Source of the DNA: a virus
Lineage: Duplodnaviria > Heunggongvirae > Uroviricota > Caudoviricetes
Reading direction: 5' to 3' (one strand)
DNA length: 20,094 nucleotides
Virus record (IMG/VR): IMGVR_UViG_2563366990_000010
Location: 1-20,094 of that record
The position numbers were made by a program, and so were the translations under genes. The notes under the pieces were generated by a model that worked only from the letters and a program-made list of their open reading frames with translations, did not search any database and was not told where the DNA came from. This document shows positions 2,065 to 15,708 of the stretch, piece by piece. The first letter of the stretch is position 1; each line of letters begins with the position of its first letter.

Positions 2065-2361
2065 TTATACCTCTGAATCAATATTAATTTGGTGACGGGC
2101 GATGGTTTCAGCCATGTAGCGGATGTGTTCTGCCATGCGTTCCTGAAAATCGACATCGTCATCAAATGCACGGGAAATAGCTTTTTTGCTGGCCCCGTGA
2201 CGTTGCAGATTATCGATGCATAGCGATTCAAACAGGTGTTGGGGCAGACCTTTTTCCAGGTCGTCTGCCAGCTCAGCTTCAGTTTCTTCACGGGCAATTT
2301 GCTGGTAGTGTCGTGCCCATGACTGCTCTTCAATGCGATCGGGGATAAGCCAGGCATTCAT
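2065..2361 (-). CDS. gam: RecBCD inhibitor Gam, short 98-aa form
   Basis: The translation matches the lambda Gam C-terminal domain ([14 protein letters not shown] ... [20 protein letters not shown]). Its ATG overlaps the upstream ORF stop (ATGA), so only the 98-aa form is encoded here. Confidence 0.92.
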
Positions 2362-4430
2362 GATTTATCACCTCCGAAATTTTCAAGCCTGTTGGCAATC
2401 ATGATGGCGATATCAGGGATTGCTGGCGCTGTGGCTATACATGCGGGGTTGGCGCACAAACCATAGACGGCGGCAATCACGAGCTGTCTTTTCCAGTCGA
2501 GAGTTACTGGCTCAGAATTGGCGTCATCGCCGGACGTATCACTGCCTGGCTCGTTCTGAACAACGGTTTCGCCCTCCTGAGCGGCATCAACAGAGTTTTC
2601 CTGAATGATCTTCTCCTCAGTTTGTGCTGAGTCTTCTCCATCAGCGGCGTCATTTTCTCCAAAAGTTTCTGTGTAAGTGCTATCGCCCATTACCGCACTA
2701 CAGTCAGGGCAGTTACCCCCGCCAGTCTGACCACAGACGCGGCAGTTTTTTTCCAGCTCCGGTTGCGCTACTGGGGCTGGCTGTTGCTCTTCTGGCCCGT
2801 TTTGTTGCGTATCCGGGCTGTTTTGTCCCGCTTCTGGGGCAATTTGTTCCACTTTGGACTGATTCTGGTCCTCAGTGTCGCGAGCCTGGATCCCCTTAAT
2901 CCACTTCGGGTCGGTTGGGTCGCTGATGCCTTCAACGAATTCTCCTCGAGAAGCTGCCAGTAATTTGTCGGCATCGACTGGATTCCTGGGGGGAATGTTT
3001 TCCCTGGCTTTATTGAGTTCCTCCCGCAGCTTCTGGTATTTCGTTTCTACAGATGAGACATTTTCCAGTGATTGCGTGTCCTCATTATGTTTAACTGGAA
3101 TTTTTTCCACTGATTCAGGCGCTGCCTGTTCATTAGCCATTGTGTCTGATGCTTGCTGCTTTTCTTCATCGTTATGTTTCTCTTCTGTTGTTCCGCGCTG
3201 CGGCATCGGGGCTGATGAGCGACCGCAGGCAATTTCCACGATCTCCGGATCCGGGTTAGTGTGATCGGTTTCGGTTAACACTTTGTTGAGATACTCAGTC
3301 ACGCGTGCCGGGATGGCCTCAATGCCGATTGGTGCTTCTTTCACGGAAGCCACCACAATGGCGCGGGAATAATCCAGCCCACCGGGCATGGCGATAAATT
3401 TGTCGCGAAAAACAGAAAAGGGCGGCTTATTCTCTGACACGATTTCTTCAACGCGTTTTGCGTGTGCTGGGTGCAGGTTATAAATATCCACATCCATTGA
3501 ACGGGCCAGAACGCCGGTGGCTACATCTCGTGCGAGTGATGTCTTATCATGTTTGAATCCTTCACCACGATCGGTAATATTTCCGCCGCCAGCGTTAGCA
3601 CCGGAAGGCGTACGGGTAATGCCTGAAACATAATTTCCGTTCTGCCATTCTTTTGTCAGCAGGCCCTGATCAAGGTAGTCAGTTTTCATCCAGGTGGAAA
3701 TGAACTTGTCGAATTCAGCCGGGCTGATGCGATGATTTGCAGAGTGGGGGAATGCTTTCCCTACAGATTCAGCCAGGCGACTAAGGTGATAGTTCGTCAG
3801 TTTATCCAGTTCATGATGCGCGGCGCGCACAGCAGTAAGCAGGCTCTGAAGGTAACTGTCCTCTGTGTCCATCTCCATACGGATCACGTTATTGCGTTGT
3901 TCTGGTGTGGCATGATGCCGGTATTTTCCATCTTCATCTTTGCTGAATAAGAAGAGGTGAAGGAAGCGATGAGTAAGGCTCAGAGTGGCGACGGGAATTT
4001 CACACTCAGAACAGTCATCGTCGCTGTCCGGGGATTCGTTTTTCTCCACATCATCCGGAATAGTTCCGTCCGGGTCATCGTTGTCATCGCCAGCAGTTGT
4101 GGCATCTTCACCGTTGATGTTGTCATTGAAGGGTATAGCCATCATGGTGATGCCATCTTCCCCGCCTTTTTCATAGCGGTTGCAGAATTCAGTATCAAAC
4201 ACGCCTTCCGGTGGAAGGTCATTCACGACGGGGAAATTTACGCGAACGGGTTTTTTGAAATCATCCTCGTCGTAGCCTGCATCGTCCATGGCTGCAATGC
4301 AGCGGGAAACTGCGACAGAAAGTTTTCTGGCATCAGCCCAGAAAAAACCGCCTTTGATGCCAAGGCGTTTTCTGACTTTATCGTTTTTTGCTTCGCAGTG
4401 TAGTGCAAAAGTCTGTTTATCAGCGCTCAT
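2358..4430 (-). CDS. Large acidic hypothetical protein, 690 aa
   Basis: Uninterrupted 2073-nt ORF in the leftward early operon immediately upstream of gam, translationally coupled to it. Contains poly-acidic low-complexity tracts, a C-x2-C-x8-C-x2-C motif ([15 protein letters not shown]) and a hydrophobic C-terminal segment. I recognise no family. Confidence 0.8.
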
Positions 4431-6245: not shown

Positions 6246-6431
6246 TCAGGCGGTCAGCTCTTTAAGCTTCTGAACTGCTTTATTCATTTCATCCATACAG
6301 TCGATGAATTCGTCCAGTTTAAGCTGCATTTTTCCGGCGGCCTGAAGAATTTCAAGTTTTAAGGGCGCAAGTTTTTTGTTGTAATCGACGCAGGTTATTA
6401 ACTCGCGGCCAGTAATATTTTGGCTTGGCAC
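6246..6431 (-). CDS. Possible small ORF (61 aa) or the frameshifted C-terminal part of the upstream gene
   Basis: Begins with GTG and a weak ribosome-binding site. Overlaps the 3' end of the 6352-6633 ORF by 80 nt in another frame; its translation looks more helical and protein-like than the alternative frame. Confidence 0.25.
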   Translation of the reverse strand: MPSQNITGRELITCVDYNKKLAPLKLEILQAAGKMQLKLDEFIDCMDEMNKAVQKLKELTA

Positions 6432-6633
6432 GAGATCCGGGTCTTGAACCTACACAAACTATATAGCTCTCTTCTTTCCTCGGAAGGCCAGGTGCATCCA
6501 GCAGACGGCCTAGTTCGAATTTTTTTACGTTGACACCAGGAGGAATCACCTCGACGATAAACCCGATTTTTACCTTCGTTACACCGTTTGATGAGCTTGA
6601 CCATTTAACTTCATCGTTCAATTTGAACTTCAT
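6352..6633 (-). CDS. Hypothetical protein, about 93 aa, first gene after N
   Basis: GAGG ribosome-binding site 6 nt before the ATG at 6631-6633. Starts 9 nt after the N stop. The C-terminal 26 residues look atypical (see the frameshift finding). Confidence 0.5.
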   Translation of the reverse strand: MKFKLNDEVKWSSSSNGVTKVKIGFIVEVIPPGVNVKKFELGRLLDAPGLPRKEESYIVCVGSRPGSRAKPKYYWPRVNNLRRLQQKTCALKT

Positions 6634-6641
6634 CATTAACC

Positions 6642-6947
6642 TCAATCGTAATAAGCCGGAATTGATTTTCCGCGTTGTTTCTGGCGGCCTGAGCAAGTCA
6701 CACCCATTTCACTGCGTGGTTTGCGGTAGTAAATACGGTTCTGTTTACTCTCGACTTCTTCTGCCTTCTTGCAGCGAAGGCTTCCGAGTGATACTGCTTT
6801 GTCTGCTCCGACGCAACCAGAGATCTTTAGCGCAATCTTCCGTGTCAGTCTTTCACTACTGCGCCGCTCTGCAATAAGTTCTTCCCTGCGAGCTTTATAG
6901 CGGCTTTTTGCCGTACCTTTGGATTCTTTCCAGATTATGGTTACCAT
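6642..6947 (-). CDS. N: N-type transcription antiterminator, phage-21-like arginine-rich motif, about 101 aa
   Basis: Small, very basic protein whose N-terminus carries GTAKSRYKARREELIAERR, matching the arginine-rich motif of phage 21 N as I recall it. AAGGAG ribosome-binding site 6 nt before the ATG at 6945-6947. boxA/boxB lie directly upstream on the same strand. Confidence 0.8.
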   Translation of the reverse strand: MVTIIWKESKGTAKSRYKARREELIAERRSSERLTRKIALKISGCVGADKAVSLGSLRCKKAEEVESKQNRIYYRKPRSEMGVTCSGRQKQRGKSIPAYYD

Positions 6948-7057
6948 GATGGTCTCCTTTAAGTGGCTTTGGTGTATGACGCGTCGAGGTGTTTTTCTTC
7001 TCGATCGCGGCCTTGCAACTGAAATTCGCGTCATCCCCAAAACCACTTAGATTTTGG

Positions 7058-7098
7058 TCTCAACGGTTAGGTTGAGAGTCCATCAATGTTAAAGAGCC
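7058..7098 (-). promoter_or_regulatory. nutL: boxA plus boxB hairpin
   Basis: On the minus strand GGCTCTTTAACATTG (boxA-like; plus-strand 7084-7098) is followed by the hairpin TCTCAAC-CTAACC-GTTGAGA (7-bp perfect stem; plus-strand 7058-7077), just upstream of N. Confidence 0.7.
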
Positions 7099-7146
7099 GG
7101 CCAATCTGTTCCGTTTGGCTTCCAGCGTCCTGCTGTTGAATTGAAG

Positions 7147-7209
7147 ATAACCTAAGTTATCTGGTTGCGCAATAACTATATTTATCATTTTATGAAAAAC
7201 GTTATAAAT
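7147..7209. promoter_or_regulatory. OL operator cluster overlapping the leftward early promoter
   Basis: 14-bp sites of form ATAAC-N4-GTTAT: ATAACCTAAGTTAT (7147-7160), ATAACTATATTTAT (7172-7185) and a degenerate third near 7196-7209, about 24-25 bp centre to centre. Same consensus as the OR sites. Confidence 0.5.
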
Positions 7210-7280
7210 GACTGATAACAAAAATATTTTATTTTTTGTGGTATCCGCGTGATATTTTCAAGGGGGAAAGGCTGATTGTT

Positions 7281-7502
7281 ATGGGTGATTGCATGTTAAT
7301 CGAAGGGGAATTTGGTGTGTTGCACCAGCGGGTAGTCGAAATTCTAGGGGTGTCGTTGCTTGAGGTTATTGCTACTGGGGAAGCTATTTCAGCAGATGCT
7401 ATTGCGGGAATGATCCGAGTGCTTCACCATGATGAATTGGATGATCTCGCTGTGAAGTTAGCTATAGATGTGTTACTTCAGGATATGCGACTGTGTAATT
7501 AA
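7281..7502 (+). CDS. Hypothetical protein, about 73 aa, between OL and cI on the opposite strand
   Basis: The ORF track gives 7236-7502 from a TTG. I place the start at the ATG at 7281, which has a G-rich ribosome-binding site (AAGGGGGAAAGG). Occupies the slot where lambda carries rexAB. No family recognised. Confidence 0.35.
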   Translation: MGDCMLIEGEFGVLHQRVVEILGVSLLEVIATGEAISADAIAGMIRVLHHDELDDLAVKLAIDVLLQDMRLCN

Positions 7503-7530
7503 GTAAATAAAACCCGGCACTGGAGCCGGG
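7503..7530 (-). terminator. Intrinsic terminator downstream of cI (minus strand)
   Basis: Perfect 6-bp GC stem CCCGGC / GCCGGG at 7513-7530 with a 6-nt loop, followed on the minus strand by UUUUAUUUAC (plus 7503-7512 A-rich). Confidence 0.55.
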
Positions 7531-7654
7531 GGATTTAGAAATGGCATTTTATGAATTGGCTACTTGGCGAATGGTTTACCATCGGTGGTATTGAGCACAA
7601 TAAAAAGCCGTTCTTCGTGAGTGTTCTTATAGCAAAAGTTCAGTTGGAGTCTGA

Positions 7655-8362
7655 TTACCAGCTATGTGATGACCAGAACACTCGCCCTATGATTCTTACG
7701 TTTTTGTAGAATTCTTCTCTGTTCATTACTTCATCAGGATACTCTTCGCGGTTTATCGATCTGATAATTACCGATGTTGGCGTGGCTATGAGCGTTTTTA
7801 CCCTTAACAAATCAGCTTGGCAAATTGCATATGTTTTACCATCCCTGATGCTCGTATCTTGCGTGTTTACCCCCACCACATCACCATCATGGAGTGTTGG
7901 CTCCATGCTTTGCCCAACAACCCTGACCAACTTTGCCGCTTTTTCTGGAACTCCCATTTTTTTCAGGTAATAGCGCCTAAAAACTAGAGAGAATTCTGCG
8001 GACTCCTCCAATGCACAACTTCCTCCGCCAGCTGAAAGTGAAATATTTAGAAGGGGGAGCGCAACAAATTCGTCATTATCATTTTGATGATCATCCCAGG
8101 CGATAGCTTTTAAAGATGATTCCCGAGCATTAGATGGCTCTTCTGCGCTCTGTGGTCTCATTGACCCTATACCAGAGCTTAGCCATTCAGGGCGAACTCT
8201 TAACGCGTTGGCTAATTCGACCATTTTACGTGATCCGGTTGTTTTACCAGATGACATCTTTTGTATGGCTGGTTGTGATACCCCCACCATGTCTGCAAGT
8301 TGTGCTTGTGACAACCCGGCTGAACTCATGGCGGCATTTAGTCTTTCTGCGAATGTTTTCAT
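7655..8362 (-). CDS. cI: CI-like prophage repressor (N-terminal HTH plus C-terminal S24 LexA-like peptidase domain), 235 aa
   Basis: N-terminal HTH (LSQAQLADMVGVSQPAIQKM). C-terminal autoproteolysis domain with a G-Q-S-M-E-P serine motif and a downstream lysine; a candidate Ala-Gly cleavage site (LSAGGG). Divergent from the cro-like gene across the operator region. Confidence 0.9.
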   Translation of the reverse strand: MKTFAERLNAAMSSAGLSQAQLADMVGVSQPAIQKMSSGKTTGSRKMVELANALRVRPEWLSSGIGSMRPQSAEEPSNARESSLKAIAWDDHQNDNDEFVALPLLNISLSAGGGSCALEESAEFSLVFRRYYLKKMGVPEKAAKLVRVVGQSMEPTLHDGDVVGVNTQDTSIRDGKTYAICQADLLRVKTLIATPTSVIIRSINREEYPDEVMNREEFYKNVRIIGRVFWSSHSW

Positions 8363-8373
8363 ACCTGTAATCT

Positions 8374-8436
8374 ATAACCACGGTTATCAAAAGTAAAACA
8401 ACAATTGTTATTGCTCTGGTGTATAACTCATGTTAT
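8374..8436. promoter_or_regulatory. OR tripartite operator between cI and cro
   Basis: Three 14-bp sites of form ATAAC-N4-GTTAT: ATAACCACGGTTAT (8374-8387), ACAACAATTGTTAT (8398-8411) and ATAACTCATGTTAT (8423-8436), with 24-25 bp centre-to-centre spacing, lying between the divergent cI and cro starts. Confidence 0.6.
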
Positions 8437-8472
8437 TTTTGGTTATGCTTTATTTGCTGTAGAGGTATGCTC

Positions 8473-8697
8473 ATGAATTTAGTGATTCAGCGAGCCTTGA
8501 ATATTGTTGGCAGTCAAAAACGACTTGCAGCTGATTGCGGCGTATCACAGCCCGCTGTTCATAAATGGTTGCGAGGCGGAAAAGTTTCTCCTGAAAAAGT
8601 TTTCGCTATCGTTAATGCCACCAATGGTCAGGTTAAGGCTTACGAAATTCGCCCGGACTTACCGCACCTGTTTCCTCATCCGAACCAGGCTGAATAA
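8473..8697 (+). CDS. cro: Cro-like HTH regulator, about 74 aa
   Basis: Small HTH protein (LAADCGVSQPAVHKWLRG) divergent from cI. I place the start at the ATG at 8473, with AGAGG 7 nt upstream; the ORF track starts at 8419. Confidence 0.75.
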   Translation: MNLVIQRALNIVGSQKRLAADCGVSQPAVHKWLRGGKVSPEKVFAIVNATNGQVKAYEIRPDLPHLFPHPNQAE

Positions 8698-8704
8698 GTA
8701 ACAC

Positions 8705-8745
8705 CGCTCTTTAACATTGCTGGTCGTTCACCTCTAACAGGGTGA
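8705..8745 (+). promoter_or_regulatory. nutR: boxA plus boxB hairpin
   Basis: CGCTCTTTAACA (8705-8716) followed by the hairpin TCACCT-CTAACA-GGGTGA (8728-8745). The loop resembles the nutL boxB loop CTAACC while the stem sequence differs but still pairs. Confidence 0.65.
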
Positions 8746-8813
8746 GCAAACATCAGTGGCAAACCCATTGGGGATTGCCGCTTAACCCCATATCAATATA
8801 GGAAAATTAACAA

Positions 8814-9110
8814 ATGTCACAAACAAGTTACAGCAAACTGTCACAGCGCGATATCGATCGCGCTGAAACGGATTTACTTATCAACCTGTCAGCTCTGACG
8901 CAAAGGGGACTGGCGAAGATGATTGGCTGTCATGAATCGAAGGTCAGTCGTACCGACTGGCGATACATCGCGGCTATTTTATGCGCGTTTCAGATGGCAT
9001 CTGATATCAGTCCGATCAGCCGGGCTTTCCAGCATGCCATTAACGTTCATGCAAATAAAAAACGTCCGGTTGGGGCCGGACGTTCTGAGCAAATCCTGAT
9101 GAATATCTGA
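8814..9110 (+). CDS. cII: CII-like transcriptional activator, 98 aa
   Basis: The C-terminus (KKRPVGAGRSEQILMNI) resembles lambda CII as I recall it; central HTH; positioned between cro and the replication genes. Confidence 0.8.
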   Translation: MSQTSYSKLSQRDIDRAETDLLINLSALTQRGLAKMIGCHESKVSRTDWRYIAAILCAFQMASDISPISRAFQHAINVHANKKRPVGAGRSEQILMNI

Positions 9111-9273
9111 TATTCAGGCAGGGCATGGAGCAATACACGGGAATAATTCTGCCACATCTGGAAGAATTTCGCCAGCAACAACACCAACCGCAGCAGCCTG
9201 AAGCCGATTGGGTTAACCCGGAAATTACGGGGACCGTCTGCGGTATGGAGTAAATCTTGTATGCGAGGGGACT

Positions 9274-10350
9274 ATGCGTAATTACGCAACAATTTCACCT
9301 CAGTTCTGGTTAGGCGATACAGGGCGAAAACTCAGGAAGTCTGGTCCGGAATGTATGGTAGTGGCGTTGTATATGATGACCTCGCCTCATTCCAATATGC
9401 TGGGCCTTTATTACCTGCCTGTTTTGTACATTGCTCACGAAACCGGACTTGATCCTGAAGGGGCTTCTAAGGGGCTTCAAATGGCTTGCGAGGCTGGTTT
9501 TTGCAGCTATGACCATGATTCTGAGGTTGTATGGGTGCATGAAATGGCAGCATGGCAGGTTGGTGAATCGCTGAAACCTGGCGATAACCGTTGTGCTGGG
9601 GTAAGAAATGAATATTCCGCGTTGCTGGAAAATCCTTTTTTATCATCCTTTTATGATAGATATAAGGATGATTTCCACCTGGATGTCAGACGTGAATCAT
9701 GTCGGAAAATTGAAGCCCCTTCAGAGCCCCTTTCAAGCCAAGAACAGGAACAGGAACAGGAAAGAGATAAAACCCTTCTGGTCCATGGCGAAAAAATCGC
9801 CACGGACCCACTGGTGGATTCTTGTCCCGTTCTGACTGAACGTCCAGGACCAGCTGGCATGACACCGGAAGCAGATTCCGGGCGTTGTGTGCAGCAGGTG
9901 CTGCTCGTCGAACCGGAGCAACAACACCAACCGCAGCAGCCTGAAGCCGATTCCGCGATGAGCGGGAAGCCGATTGGGTTAACCCGGGCGATGCCGGGAC
10001 CGTCTGCGGGACGAGTTGATTATCCTGACGTGTTCGAACGGGTCTGGCGTGAATATCCGCATCGGGCAGGGTCAAACCCGAAGAAATCCGCGTTCAATGC
10101 CTGGAGGGCCAGATTACGCGAAGGGGTGTCACCGGATGTCGTGCTGGATGGCGTGAGGCGTTACGCAAGATACCTGGAGGCTACCGGGAAAGCGGGAACT
10201 GAATTTGTTCAGCAGGCATCGACGTTTTTTGGCCCGAACAGGAATTTCGAAAATCCGTGGTCGCTGCCGAAGGCTGGCGCAGTCAGCCAGCGTTGCGTGA
10301 ACCACATTTCTGAACCGGACACCGAAATTCCGCCGGGGTTCAGGGGGTAA
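9274..10350 (+). CDS. Replication initiation protein (O-like position), 358 aa
   Basis: Sits in the O slot immediately upstream of the DnaC-like loader. Contains a (CAGGAA)x3 tandem repeat, an AT-rich 9-bp inverted repeat, and a segment that is duplicated upstream of the gene. Confidence 0.6.
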   Translation: MRNYATISPQFWLGDTGRKLRKSGPECMVVALYMMTSPHSNMLGLYYLPVLYIAHETGLDPEGASKGLQMACEAGFCSYDHDSEVVWVHEMAAWQVGESLKPGDNRCAGVRNEYSALLENPFLSSFYDRYKDDFHLDVRRESCRKIEAPSEPLSSQEQEQEQERDKTLLVHGEKIATDPLVDSCPVLTERPGPAGMTPEADSGRCVQQVLLVEPEQQHQPQQPEADSAMSGKPIGLTRAMPGPSAGRVDYPDVFERVWREYPHRAGSNPKKSAFNAWRARLREGVSPDVVLDGVRRYARYLEATGKAGTEFVQQASTFFGPNRNFENPWSLPKAGAVSQRCVNHISEPDTEIPPGFRG

Positions 10351-14546: not shown

Positions 14547-14602
14547 TCTTCGCACGGTCGAGTTGGCCGTCGGGATTGGAACCCCGGATAGAGACCGCGA
14601 CA

Positions 14603-14628
14603 AACACACGCCGCGAGCGTGTTTTTTA
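14603..14628 (+). terminator. Leader terminator / attenuator-like hairpin about 55 nt downstream of the promoter
   Basis: Stem ACACGC / GCGTGT with loop CGCGA (14605-14621) followed by TTTTTTATT, located about 160 nt upstream of the antirepressor ATG. Confidence 0.5.
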
Positions 14629-14788
14629 TTGTCGTATGCACGCGCACATCTGAATTATGGTGGGGCGCATGGGGGAGCTGAAAAGCTCGCCGGTCGGTTT
14701 CCCGGTAGTTCCAACCCTGTGCGTCTCACCACCCGATGATTGGAACCTTACGGTGGTGATAGTTTAGAAACCACTAGAGGGCGTCATT

Positions 14789-15454
14789 ATGACAACTCAA
14801 ATCTCTGTTGAAACCATCTCCCCGATTACCCATAACCAGATTCTTGTTATTACCACCGAGCTTTTGGCACAACTTTATGGCACCGAAACTAATAACATCA
14901 AAGTGAACTATACGCGCAATGCCGAGCGTTTTGTTTGCGGGAAGCACTACTTCAAATTGGAAGGGGCTGAATTGCGGGAATTTAAGAACAAGGTTACTCA
15001 AAGTAACTTAGTTGCACCGCGTACAAAGCACCTCATCCTCTGGACAGAACGCGGCGCAGCCCGTCATGCAAAAATGCTCGAAACCGATCGAGCGTGGGAA
15101 GTATTCGAAAAACTGGAAGACTGCTATTTCAGCCTGGGAAAAACAATACAAACCGAACAGCAGTCGCAGATTCAGCCACAATTCACAGCCGAGGAAATCA
15201 TCCTCCTTTGCTACATGCAGCTCTGGATGGAAAAAGCCCAGAACATCAGCAAACACCTGTATCCCATTATGAAAGAGCTGAACTCCTCATACACGAACAA
15301 GCTGTATGACATTGCGTTTGAAACCATCTACATGGTGACGAAGAACAGAGACGCGCTACTGCGGGAGGCGGCACGGCTTGACCAGTCAAGTTTCGTTATC
15401 CAGCGGGCCAGACCAATGCTGAAAAGCCTGCGGGCAAGACAATTCGAGTTTTAA
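14789..15454 (+). CDS. Phage antirepressor-like protein, ORF6N-type N-terminal domain with a shared C-terminal domain, 221 aa
   Basis: The N-terminal region resembles ORF6N/KilA-N-type antirepressor domains; AGAGGG ribosome-binding site. The C-terminal 95 aa are about 65 percent identical to the C-terminus of the next gene. Confidence 0.7.
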   Translation: MTTQISVETISPITHNQILVITTELLAQLYGTETNNIKVNYTRNAERFVCGKHYFKLEGAELREFKNKVTQSNLVAPRTKHLILWTERGAARHAKMLETDRAWEVFEKLEDCYFSLGKTIQTEQQSQIQPQFTAEEIILLCYMQLWMEKAQNISKHLYPIMKELNSSYTNKLYDIAFETIYMVTKNRDALLREAARLDQSSFVIQRARPMLKSLRARQFEF

Positions 15455-15492: not shown

Positions 15493-15708
15493 CCGCTCCA
15501 TGGTGCTGAACACACCTTCGAAAGCGGAAACCGCGCCCGTCAGTCATGCGGATTTTTTATGTCCATTTTTCAGATATGGTCGGGTAGCGCGTATACCGAA
15601 AAACAGCCGCAAGGCTAAGGATGCGGGCCGAACTTTCGACGGTGTTCAAGTACCCGACCGCCCTGCTGAACACGGGGTGATCTGAACGAATCGAAAGGAC
15701 ATAAAACT

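What the first reader, a model, noticed from the sequence alone, without database searches (positions are those of the whole stretch)
6642..7098. Phage-21-type N with cognate nutL and nutR boxB hairpins that co-vary
The N product carries the arginine-rich motif GTAKSRYKARREELIAERR, which matches the phage 21 N peptide as I recall it. Both nut sites have a boxA (CGCTCTTTAACA-like) followed by a boxB hairpin with a CTAAC(C/A) loop. The stems differ in sequence (TCTCAAC/GTTGAGA at nutL; TCACCT/GGGTGA at nutR) but both still pair, which is internal support for a functional N-nut system. The recombination module, by contrast, is lambda-type, so the prophage is mosaic.
Basis: partly seen in the sequence, partly recalled or inferred. 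Interest (0 to 1): 0.4.

Follow-up and report, generated by a model that had tools for sequence, protein, structure and literature searches.

The report
Phage-21-type N antiterminator with nut sites
This is an ordinary, well-understood phage switch: an E. coli prophage carries the phage-21 version of the N anti-termination protein and the two RNA hairpins it binds, almost letter for letter as in phage 21 itself.

Summary
The N gene lies at 6947-6642 on the minus strand and encodes 101 aa. Residues 8-29 match the phage 21 N peptide of PDB 1NYB at 21 of 22 positions. Its C-terminus matches the RNA-polymerase-binding end of lambda N (6GOV). Overall it is 82% identical to phage 21 N.

nutL (boxA 7098-7087, boxB 7077-7058) has a boxB identical to the nutL annotated in phage 21. 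nutR (boxA 8705-8716, boxB 8726-8747) lies outside the stated coordinates. It differs from phage 21 nutR by one loop base (CUAACA instead of CUAACC).

The two stems differ on both sides at 5 of 7 pairs, and both still pair. That difference is inherited from phage 21; relatives add no further compensatory stem variant.

The gene order is canonical: three operators, PL, nutL, a leader hairpin and N on the left; three operators, PR, cro, nutR and cII on the right.

The prophage is mosaic, but not in the way argued. Phage 21 carries the same lambda-type exo-bet-gam. What differs here is the immunity cassette, which is of the phage PA28 / Stx1a-phage type, and the N C-terminus.

Interest is low.

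The parts
6642..6947 (-). N gene: 101 aa plus stop. It has a phage-21-type arginine-rich motif at residues 8-29 and a lambda-N-like C-terminal RNA-polymerase-binding segment at residues 62-98.
   Evidence: ORF list and sequence. 1NYB_A 21/22 identical, E 4.9e-6; 6GOV_N E 1.8e-6. PHROG 271 'anti-termination protein N-like' E 7.6e-35. 82% identical to phage 21 N. BLASTP to lambda N C-terminus 20/35 identical.
6954..6958 (-). Shine-Dalgarno AGGAG, 6 nt spacer before the N ATG (ATG 7 bases after it).
   Evidence: Read directly from the sequence. Phage 21 annotates an RBS at the equivalent place.
6960..7049 (-). Long imperfect hairpin in the N leader, between boxB-L and the N ribosome-binding site. 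By position it corresponds to the RNase III-processed N-leader stem of lambda; that correspondence is an inference.
   Evidence: The 208-nt leader folds at -68.4 kcal/mol, z = -5.5, with 0 of 200 shuffles as good. The stem is kept in phage 21, PA28 and L021, with compensatory changes at 2 stem pairs.
7058..7077 (-). boxB-L of nutL: a 7-bp stem TCTCAAC/GTTGAGA with hexaloop CUAACC.
   Evidence: Fold. Identical to the stem_loop annotated as nutL in phage 21 OL657228.
7087..7098 (-). boxA-L: GGCTCTTTAACA.
   Evidence: Exact 11-mer match. Aligns with boxA-L annotated in phage 21.
7137..7172 (-). PL, inferred. -35 TTGCGC (7172-7167), 17-nt spacer, -10 TATCTT (7149-7144), start near 7137.
   Evidence: Homology to phage 21 ends at 7138, which corresponds to the annotated pL start. 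The hexamers were read by eye and are too weak for the consensus scan. This part is inference.
7147..7205 (.). Three OL operators of the form ATAAC-N4-GTTAT (7147-7160, 7172-7185, 7192-7205).
   Evidence: Pattern search: the perfect and 1-mismatch matches cluster only here and at OR.
8374..8436 (.). Three OR operators (8374-8387, 8398-8411, 8423-8436), with PR inferred over OR1: TTGCTC, 17 nt, TATTTT (8411-8439).
   Evidence: Pattern search. The promoter hexamers were read by eye; this is inference.
8473..8697 (+). cro-like gene (74 aa), the first gene of the PR transcript.
   Evidence: PHROG 35 E 2.7e-27. Pfam YdaS_toxin above its cut-off; P22_Cro and Cro matches below theirs.
8705..8716 (+). 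boxA-R: CGCTCTTTAACA, starting 8 nt after the cro stop codon.
   Evidence: Exact match. Aligns with boxA-R of phage 21.
8726..8747 (+). boxB-R of nutR: stem (G)TTCACCT/GGGTGAG(C) with hexaloop CUAACA.
   Evidence: Fold. Aligns with nutR annotated in phage 21 (AJ237660 315-334 and OL657228), with a single loop difference C to A.
8755..8780 (+). Position equivalent to tR1 of phage 21: the hairpin GGCAAACCCATTGGGGATTGCC with no U-tract.
   Evidence: Alignment to AJ237660, where 343-368 is annotated 'terminator tR1'. Function here is inferred.
8814..9110 (+). cII gene, the first gene that needs read-through past the tR1-equivalent site.
   Evidence: Pfam Phage_CII E 6.5e-26. 78.7% DNA identity to phage 21 across nutR-cII.
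16346..16373 (+). Strong intrinsic terminator (8-bp stem plus T-run) on the PR transcript between nutR and Q. A likely target of N-modified polymerase.
   Evidence: Terminator scan. Q-family gene at 19320-19745: Pfam Phage_antitermQ E 3.5e-45.

Best explanation
This is a phage-21-specificity N/nut processive antitermination module of a lambdoid E. coli prophage.

How it would work: when repression is lifted, PL and PR fire. The PL transcript carries nutL (boxA, then boxB) 40-80 nt from its start, followed by a long leader hairpin and the N gene. The PR transcript carries nutR directly after cro.

The arginine-rich helix of N (residues about 8-29) binds the boxB hairpins. boxA recruits host NusB/NusE. 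The C-terminal segment of N, together with NusA and NusG, remodels the elongating RNA polymerase.

The modified polymerase then reads through the tR1-equivalent site before cII and through intrinsic terminators further right, on the way to Q. It also reads through terminators in the leftward kil-gam-bet-exo operon.

Shown here: the sequence identity of the parts to phage 21 and lambda N, their folding and their arrangement.

Inferred: binding, Nus dependence and read-through.
For: The ARM matches the solved phage 21 N peptide at 21 of 22 positions, and the C-terminus matches lambda N in the antitermination complex 6GOV. PHROG 271 'N-like' scores E 7.6e-35. The protein is 82% identical to phage 21 N.

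nutL boxB is identical to the annotated phage 21 nutL, and nutR differs by one loop base. Both hairpins fold as expected. The boxA-plus-loop pattern occurs twice, against 0.00 expected. Five of 7 stem pairs are compensated between the two sites.

The architecture is canonical. There are three operators on each side, a cI with HTH and S24 peptidase domains, cro and cII. The kil, gam, bet and exo genes lie downstream of N. Q and intrinsic terminators lie downstream of nutR.

The same N/nut haplotype occurs in inducible phages: PA28 and the Stx1a-converting phages are 97.5% identical over 6726-9028. A 100% identical N-nutL copy is present in E. coli FORC_069.
Against: No functional data exist for this allele.

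The Pfam N_peptide match is below the curated cut-off (20.3 against 27.9 bits). NCBIfam has no match. RefSeq names the protein 'hypothetical'.

The central NusA-binding segment aligns only weakly with lambda N. The nutR loop carries A instead of C at position 6, and N carries E instead of A at residue 22. The effect of either change on binding is unknown.

No convincing intrinsic terminator was found in the leftward operon. Rho-dependent sites cannot be predicted with these tools.
Confidence: 0.93

Rival explanations
1. The module is an inactive relic. The prophage is defective, and N or its nut sites no longer work: for example, the mosaic C-terminus of N or the nutR loop change abolishes function.
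For: The N C-terminus is a recombinant module that differs from both phage 21 and PA28. The nutR loop differs from the solved boxB. The neighbouring hok-like gene looks frameshifted. A related E. coli copy sits in a degraded prophage with IS66.
Against: The ORF is intact and has a good Shine-Dalgarno sequence. The C-terminal segment keeps the motif shared with lambda N, GxTCSGRQKxxGKSIP. The identical protein recurs in IMG/VR locus L088, and the DNA recurs in complete E. coli genomes. The CUAACA loop, the E22 ARM and the nutL of this haplotype are found in the phages PA28 and the Stx1a-converting phages.
Confidence: 0.05
2. This is a shifted specificity class. N with E22 and the nutR loop CUAACA would be a co-adapted pair that differs functionally from phage 21 N/boxB, for example by tuning nutR occupancy relative to nutL.
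For: In IMG/VR relatives, A22 goes with CUAACC in 59 loci and with CUAACA in 1. E22 goes with CUAACA in 15 loci, with CUAACT in 1 and never with CUAACC. In the solved phage 21 complex, loop positions 1 and 6 form a C-C pair flanking the UAAC fold (PMC12550061), so position 6 is structurally relevant.
Against: The 14 E22 loci in which both nut sites could be located share one immunity cassette of the same 1.6-kb length. The association is therefore explained by descent and linkage. nutL of the same phages keeps the phage 21 loop CUAACC and the identical stem, so this N must still recognise the standard boxB. One A22 phage also carries CUAACA, so the loop change is tolerated with the standard N.
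Confidence: 0.04
3. The hairpins are not N targets. They would be chance or other structures, such as terminators or RNase sites, next to boxA-like words.
For: The hairpins are short. The nutR z-score is only -2.1.
Against: Neither stem is followed by a U-tract. The boxA-plus-loop pattern is never seen in shuffles. The sequences equal or nearly equal the annotated and structurally solved phage 21 boxB. Both lie in the canonical positions on the PL and PR transcripts.
Confidence: 0.01

Closest known systems
Phage 21 N protein with nutL/nutR (complete genome OL657228; partial record AJ237660; N peptide-boxB NMR structure PDB 1NYB)
   Same: The ARM is 21 of 22 identical. nutL boxB is identical and the boxA core GCTCTTTAACA is identical. 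The nutR stem is identical. The order PL-nutL-leader hairpin-N and cro-nutR-tR1-cII is the same. DNA identity is 90.5% over N-nutL and 78.7% over nutR-cII.
   Different: N is 82% identical overall, with A22E in the ARM and a different C-terminal tail (...CSGRQKQRGKSIPAYYD against ...CVGRQKIKLGSKPLI). The nutR loop is CUAACA, not CUAACC. The repressor, cro and operators between the nut sites are not those of phage 21.
Escherichia phage PA28 (KP682381) and Stx1a-converting phages (LC645428 and others)
   Same: 97.5% DNA identity from inside N through nutL, the immunity cassette, cro and nutR into cII. The nutR region is 100% identical. They have the same E22 ARM.
   Different: Homology stops at window 6726, so the last ~27 residues of N are a different module. 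PA28 N is 112 aa and 74% identical overall. The genes left of N also differ.
Lambda N / nut system (NC_001416; antitermination complex 6GOV)
   Same: The mechanism class and gene order are the same. The C-terminal RNA-polymerase-binding segment is conserved, 20 of 35 identical. exo-bet-gam is 93.9% identical.
   Different: The ARM sequence is different. Lambda boxB is a GAAAA/GAAGA pentaloop on a GCCCU stem, against a CUAAC(C/A) hexaloop here. Lambda boxA is CGCTCTTA, while the one here has the longer GCTCTTTAACA form. Overall N identity is 35%.

Membership tests
Lambdoid N / nut processive antitermination | [quoted passage not shown] | tested here: met
   Residues 8-29 match the phage 21 N peptide of 1NYB at 21 of 22 positions.
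Lambdoid N / nut processive antitermination | Match to a family profile | tested here: inconclusive
   PHROG 271 'N-like' scores E 7.6e-35 over residues 1-100. Pfam PF25694 N_peptide scores 20.3 bits, below its 27.9-bit cut-off. NCBIfam gives no hit.
Lambdoid N / nut processive antitermination | C-terminal RNA-polymerase-binding segment | tested here: met
   Residues 62-98 align to lambda N 74-109 of 6GOV, E 1.8e-6. BLASTP gives 20 of 35 identical.
Lambdoid N / nut processive antitermination | Central NusA-binding segment | tested here: inconclusive
   Only L-x-RK is shared with lambda N 34-47 in the MAFFT alignment.
Lambdoid N / nut processive antitermination | nut sites (boxA followed by a boxB hairpin) on both early transcripts: after PL before N, and after cro | tested here: met
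   Operators and gene order.
Lambdoid N / nut processive antitermination | Terminators downstream that N-modified polymerase must pass | tested here: inconclusive
   There is a tR1-equivalent hairpin at 8755-8780 by homology and intrinsic terminators at 14606 and 16346 (+) before Q. None is convincing on the leftward side. Rho-dependent sites are not predictable.
Lambdoid N / nut processive antitermination | N- and Nus-dependent read-through activity | not testable with these tools
   Needs reporter or genetic assays.
Phage 21 specificity class (N21 / boxB21) | boxB with a CUAACC hexaloop on a 7-bp stem, as in phage 21 nutL and nutR | tested here: met
   nutL boxB is identical to that of phage 21. 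The nutR stem is identical and the loop is CUAACA, a one-base difference.
Phage 21 specificity class (N21 / boxB21) | ARM sequence of N21 | tested here: met
   21 of 22 identical; the single change is A22E. The effect of E22 is untested.
imm21 immunity type | cI, cro and operators of phage 21 between the nut sites | tested here: not met
   There is no similarity to phage 21 between 7139 and 8684. That segment is 96.5% identical to PA28.

The most novel reading that the evidence does not exclude
The E22 change in the ARM and the C-to-A change at loop position 6 of nutR (which turns the C-C flanking pair of the phage 21 boxB loop into C-A) form a co-adapted pair. It would set different N affinities at nutR and nutL, making this a sub-specificity within the phage 21 class.
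Probability: 0.04. Interest if true: 0.3.

Novelty: already known. Interest (0 to 1): 0.08.

Why it matters
It matters little beyond annotation. RefSeq labels this N allele 'hypothetical protein' (WP_000256291). Neither Pfam at its curated cut-off nor NCBIfam names it. About 1080 of 5426 complete E. coli genomes hold DNA related to this N-nutL segment. A profile that covers the phage 21 class, together with nut-site annotation, would therefore improve prophage annotation, including that of Stx1a-converting phages. The locus also illustrates a known pattern: an immunity cassette is exchanged between fixed joints at the PL start and the end of cro, while N, nutL and nutR stay together as a cognate set.

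Tried and rejected
1. I looked for further compensatory stem variants among relatives to get independent covariation, using two IMG/VR pattern scans. Among sites with the N-type boxA there are only the two phage 21 stems (nutR with outer-pair variants) plus one nutR variant with an uncompensated C.A mismatch; a few other stems among the 95 pattern matches lack that boxA. Covariation therefore rests on the nutL-versus-nutR comparison alone.

2. I tested whether N residue 22 and nutR loop position 6 co-vary. They do, strongly. However, the 14 E22 loci in which both nut sites could be located share one immunity cassette of the same length. I rejected this as evidence of co-adaptation.

3. Rfam has no family matching either nut site, at gathering thresholds or at E up to 1.

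4. The consensus promoter scan does not pick up PL or PR. I placed them from the operators and from the end of homology with phage 21.

5. The Cilley and Williamson 2003 paper on the phage 21 N-boxB structure is not held in the library. I used the PDB sequence and a secondary description of the loop (PMC12550061).

6. A literature hit on a prophage sRNA (PMC12803456) turned out to match 'nutrient', not nutR.

Full report
**The observation**

The region holds a minus-strand ORF, listed mechanically as 6642-7046. The likely start is the ATG at 6947, seven bases after AGGAG. This gives a 101-aa protein, MVTIIWKESKGTAKSRYKARREELIAERR..., which contains the quoted motif.

The boxA core GCTCTTTAACA occurs exactly twice in the 20-kb window, at 7097-7087 on the minus strand and 8706-8716 on the plus strand. 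The composite pattern of boxA, a 12-22 nt gap and CTAAC also occurs twice. It never occurs in 100 dinucleotide-preserving shuffles.

Each boxA is followed by a hairpin:
- nutL: TCTCAAC-CTAACC-GTTGAGA, 7077-7058 (-).
- nutR: (G)TTCACCT-CTAACA-GGGTGAG(C), 8726-8747 (+).

Both are the minimum-free-energy structures of the isolated segments, at -7.4 kcal/mol each. The z-scores are -4.5 and -2.1. Counted pair by pair, 5 of 7 stem pairs differ on both sides between the two sites and still pair. The other two differ on one side.

nutR lies outside the coordinates given in the finding.

**What it is**

Residues 8-29 match chain A of PDB 1NYB, the phage 21 N peptide solved with its boxB RNA, at 21 of 22 positions. 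The one change is A22E. Residues 62-98 match the C-terminal part of lambda N in the antitermination complex 6GOV, with 20 of 35 identical by BLASTP.

The protein hits PHROG 271 'anti-termination protein N-like' at E 7.6e-35. It falls below the Pfam N_peptide cut-off and has no NCBIfam match. RefSeq accordingly calls it hypothetical.

Against the complete phage 21 genome (OL657228), N is 82% identical. The DNA from inside N to the annotated pL start is 90.5% identical (window 6678-7138). The annotated phage 21 nutL stem-loop is identical to the window's boxB-L. The annotated nutR differs only in the sixth loop base, C in phage 21 and A here.

**Surroundings**

Three ATAAC-N4-GTTAT operators lie just upstream of nutL (7147-7205), and three more lie upstream of cro (8374-8436). 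Between them are these features:
- a cI-type repressor with HTH and S24 peptidase domains (7655-8362, -);
- its terminator (7530-7513, -);
- a small conserved plus-strand ORF.

To the right come cro, nutR, a hairpin at the place where phage 21 records annotate tR1, cII, replication genes, two intrinsic terminators and a Q-family gene. To the left of N come small ORFs, a Rac-type kil, a RecE-family ORF, and gam, bet and exo.

Between boxB-L and the N ribosome-binding site is a long hairpin (7049-6960). It is part of a leader that folds far better than shuffles (z = -5.5). It is conserved in phage 21, PA28 and a more distant relative, with compensatory changes at 2 stem pairs. By position it corresponds to the RNase III-processed N-leader stem known from lambda. 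That correspondence rests on my own knowledge and was not tested here.

**Mechanism**

The parts and their order are those of the textbook N system. The steps are:
1. N binds boxB through its arginine-rich helix.
2. boxA recruits NusB/NusE.
3. The N C-terminus, with NusA and NusG, renders RNA polymerase resistant to terminators downstream of both early promoters.

Sequence identity, folding and arrangement are shown here. Binding, Nus dependence and read-through are inferred from phage 21 and lambda. I put this at about 0.93.

**Relatives**

Two pattern scans of IMG/VR gave dozens of loci with the same module. The nutL hairpin is invariant. The nutR hairpin has the phage 21 stem nearly everywhere. 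Its loops are CTAACC in 71 cases, CTAACA in 21, CTAACT in 2 and CTAACG in 1.

A third N group, with ARM ...KARRAAKIEQAQ, carries a nutR stem with an uncompensated C.A mismatch. Relatives therefore conserve the hairpins, which was the finding's own refutation test. They add no independent covariation.

N E22 is tightly associated with the CUAACA loop: 15 of 16 E22 loci have it, against 1 of 60 A22 loci. The 14 E22 loci in which both nut sites could be located, however, have an immunity cassette of the same 1.6-kb length. The association therefore reflects one haplotype.

A secondary source states that loop positions 1 and 6 of the phage 21 boxB form a C-C pair around a GNRA-like UAAC fold (PMC12550061). 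The A at position 6 would make this C-A. Whether that matters is unknown. nutL in the same phages keeps CUAACC.

**Mosaicism**

The finding's argument, 21-type N against a lambda-type recombination module, does not hold as a contrast. exo-bet-gam is 93.9% identical to lambda and equally to phage 21.

The actual joints are these:
- At 7138, the PL start, and at about 8685, near the 3' end of cro. Between them the cI-cro-operator cassette is unrelated to phage 21. It is 96.5% identical to phage PA28 by blastn (97.5% by megablast over 6726-9028), with the Stx1a-converting phages about the same.
- At about 6726, inside N. Left of this point PA28 diverges, and the N C-terminal tail is one of at least three alternative modules.

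**Spread and novelty**

The 2.9-kb region is 99.4-99.8% identical to prophages in 19 complete E. coli genomes. The N-nutL segment is 100% identical in strain FORC_069. Related DNA is present in 1080 of 5426 complete genomes.

This is an already known system, with identical or near-identical copies in sequenced phages where N is annotated. Interest is low. The only practical point is that this N class escapes curated naming.

Noticed in passing
window 7281/7293-7502 (+): A small conserved ORF (69-73 aa, PHROG 3946, unknown function; RefSeq hypothetical WP_024166114). It lies between the OL operators and the cI terminator (7530-7513, -) and is convergent with cI. A possible extended -10 (TGATATTTT) lies just upstream. 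PA28 leaves it unannotated.
   Followed up: partly
window 6960-7049 (-): A long conserved hairpin in the N leader, between boxB-L and the N Shine-Dalgarno sequence (leader z = -5.5). It is kept in phage 21, PA28 and L021, with compensatory changes at 2 stem pairs. It resembles the lambda N-leader RNase III site.
   Followed up: partly
window 6642-6726 (-): The last ~27 codons of N form a separate mosaic module. PA28 homology stops at 6726. Relatives show at least three alternative N C-terminal tails joined to the same N-terminal part.
   Followed up: partly
window 14554-14736 (+) and 14789-15454 (+): Rfam isrK (14554-14627) and C4 antisense RNA (14653-14736) lie directly upstream of an ORF6N/P22_AR_C antirepressor-like gene. 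This looks like a P1/P7 immI-like or Gifsy IsrK-like control unit inside the nin region.
   Followed up: partly
window 15578-16373 (+): Rfam sRNA-Xcc1 (15578-15667) lies upstream of a second, paralogous antirepressor-like gene (Bro-N plus P22_AR_C, 15709-16341). Its C-terminal half resembles that of the 14789-15454 gene. A strong intrinsic terminator follows at 16346-16373.
   Followed up: partly
window 19776-20094 (+): An Rfam sok (CssrC) match at 19776-19947 lies right after the Q-family gene. The adjacent hokD-like ORF reads MKQQKAMLI and then shifts frame: TTAATTCGCC has one extra T relative to the Hok reading frame. This is either a hok pseudogene or a sequencing error.
   Followed up: partly
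window 2358-4430 (-): A 690-aa RecE-family ORF. It matches PHROG 607 positions 1-618 of 883 and the Pfam Exonuc_VIII N-terminal region, so it lacks the C-terminal nuclease part. It abuts lambda-type gam-bet-exo, placing Rac-type and lambda-type recombination genes side by side.
   Followed up: partly
window 9174-9243 and 9917-10009 (+): Direct repeats of 36 nt (100% identical) and 49 nt (84%), spaced about 750 bp apart. One copy is upstream of the O-like replication gene and one is inside it; both encode QQHQPQQPEAD. The near-identical E. coli prophage has these repeats arranged differently.
   Followed up: partly
window 9055-9127 (-): An oop-like antisense RNA with a strong terminator (9086-9059, -) overlapping the end of cII. 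It gives sub-threshold Rfam matches to Hrs13 and AgvB.
   Followed up: no
window 6352-6636 (-) and 6246-6431 (-): The first ORF after N (94 aa, PHROG 11941, full-length match) is not annotated in the near-identical RefSeq genome. It overlaps by 80 nt a 61-aa ORF that matches only the C-terminal end of longer PHROG families. That second ORF is probably a remnant left by recombination.
   Followed up: no
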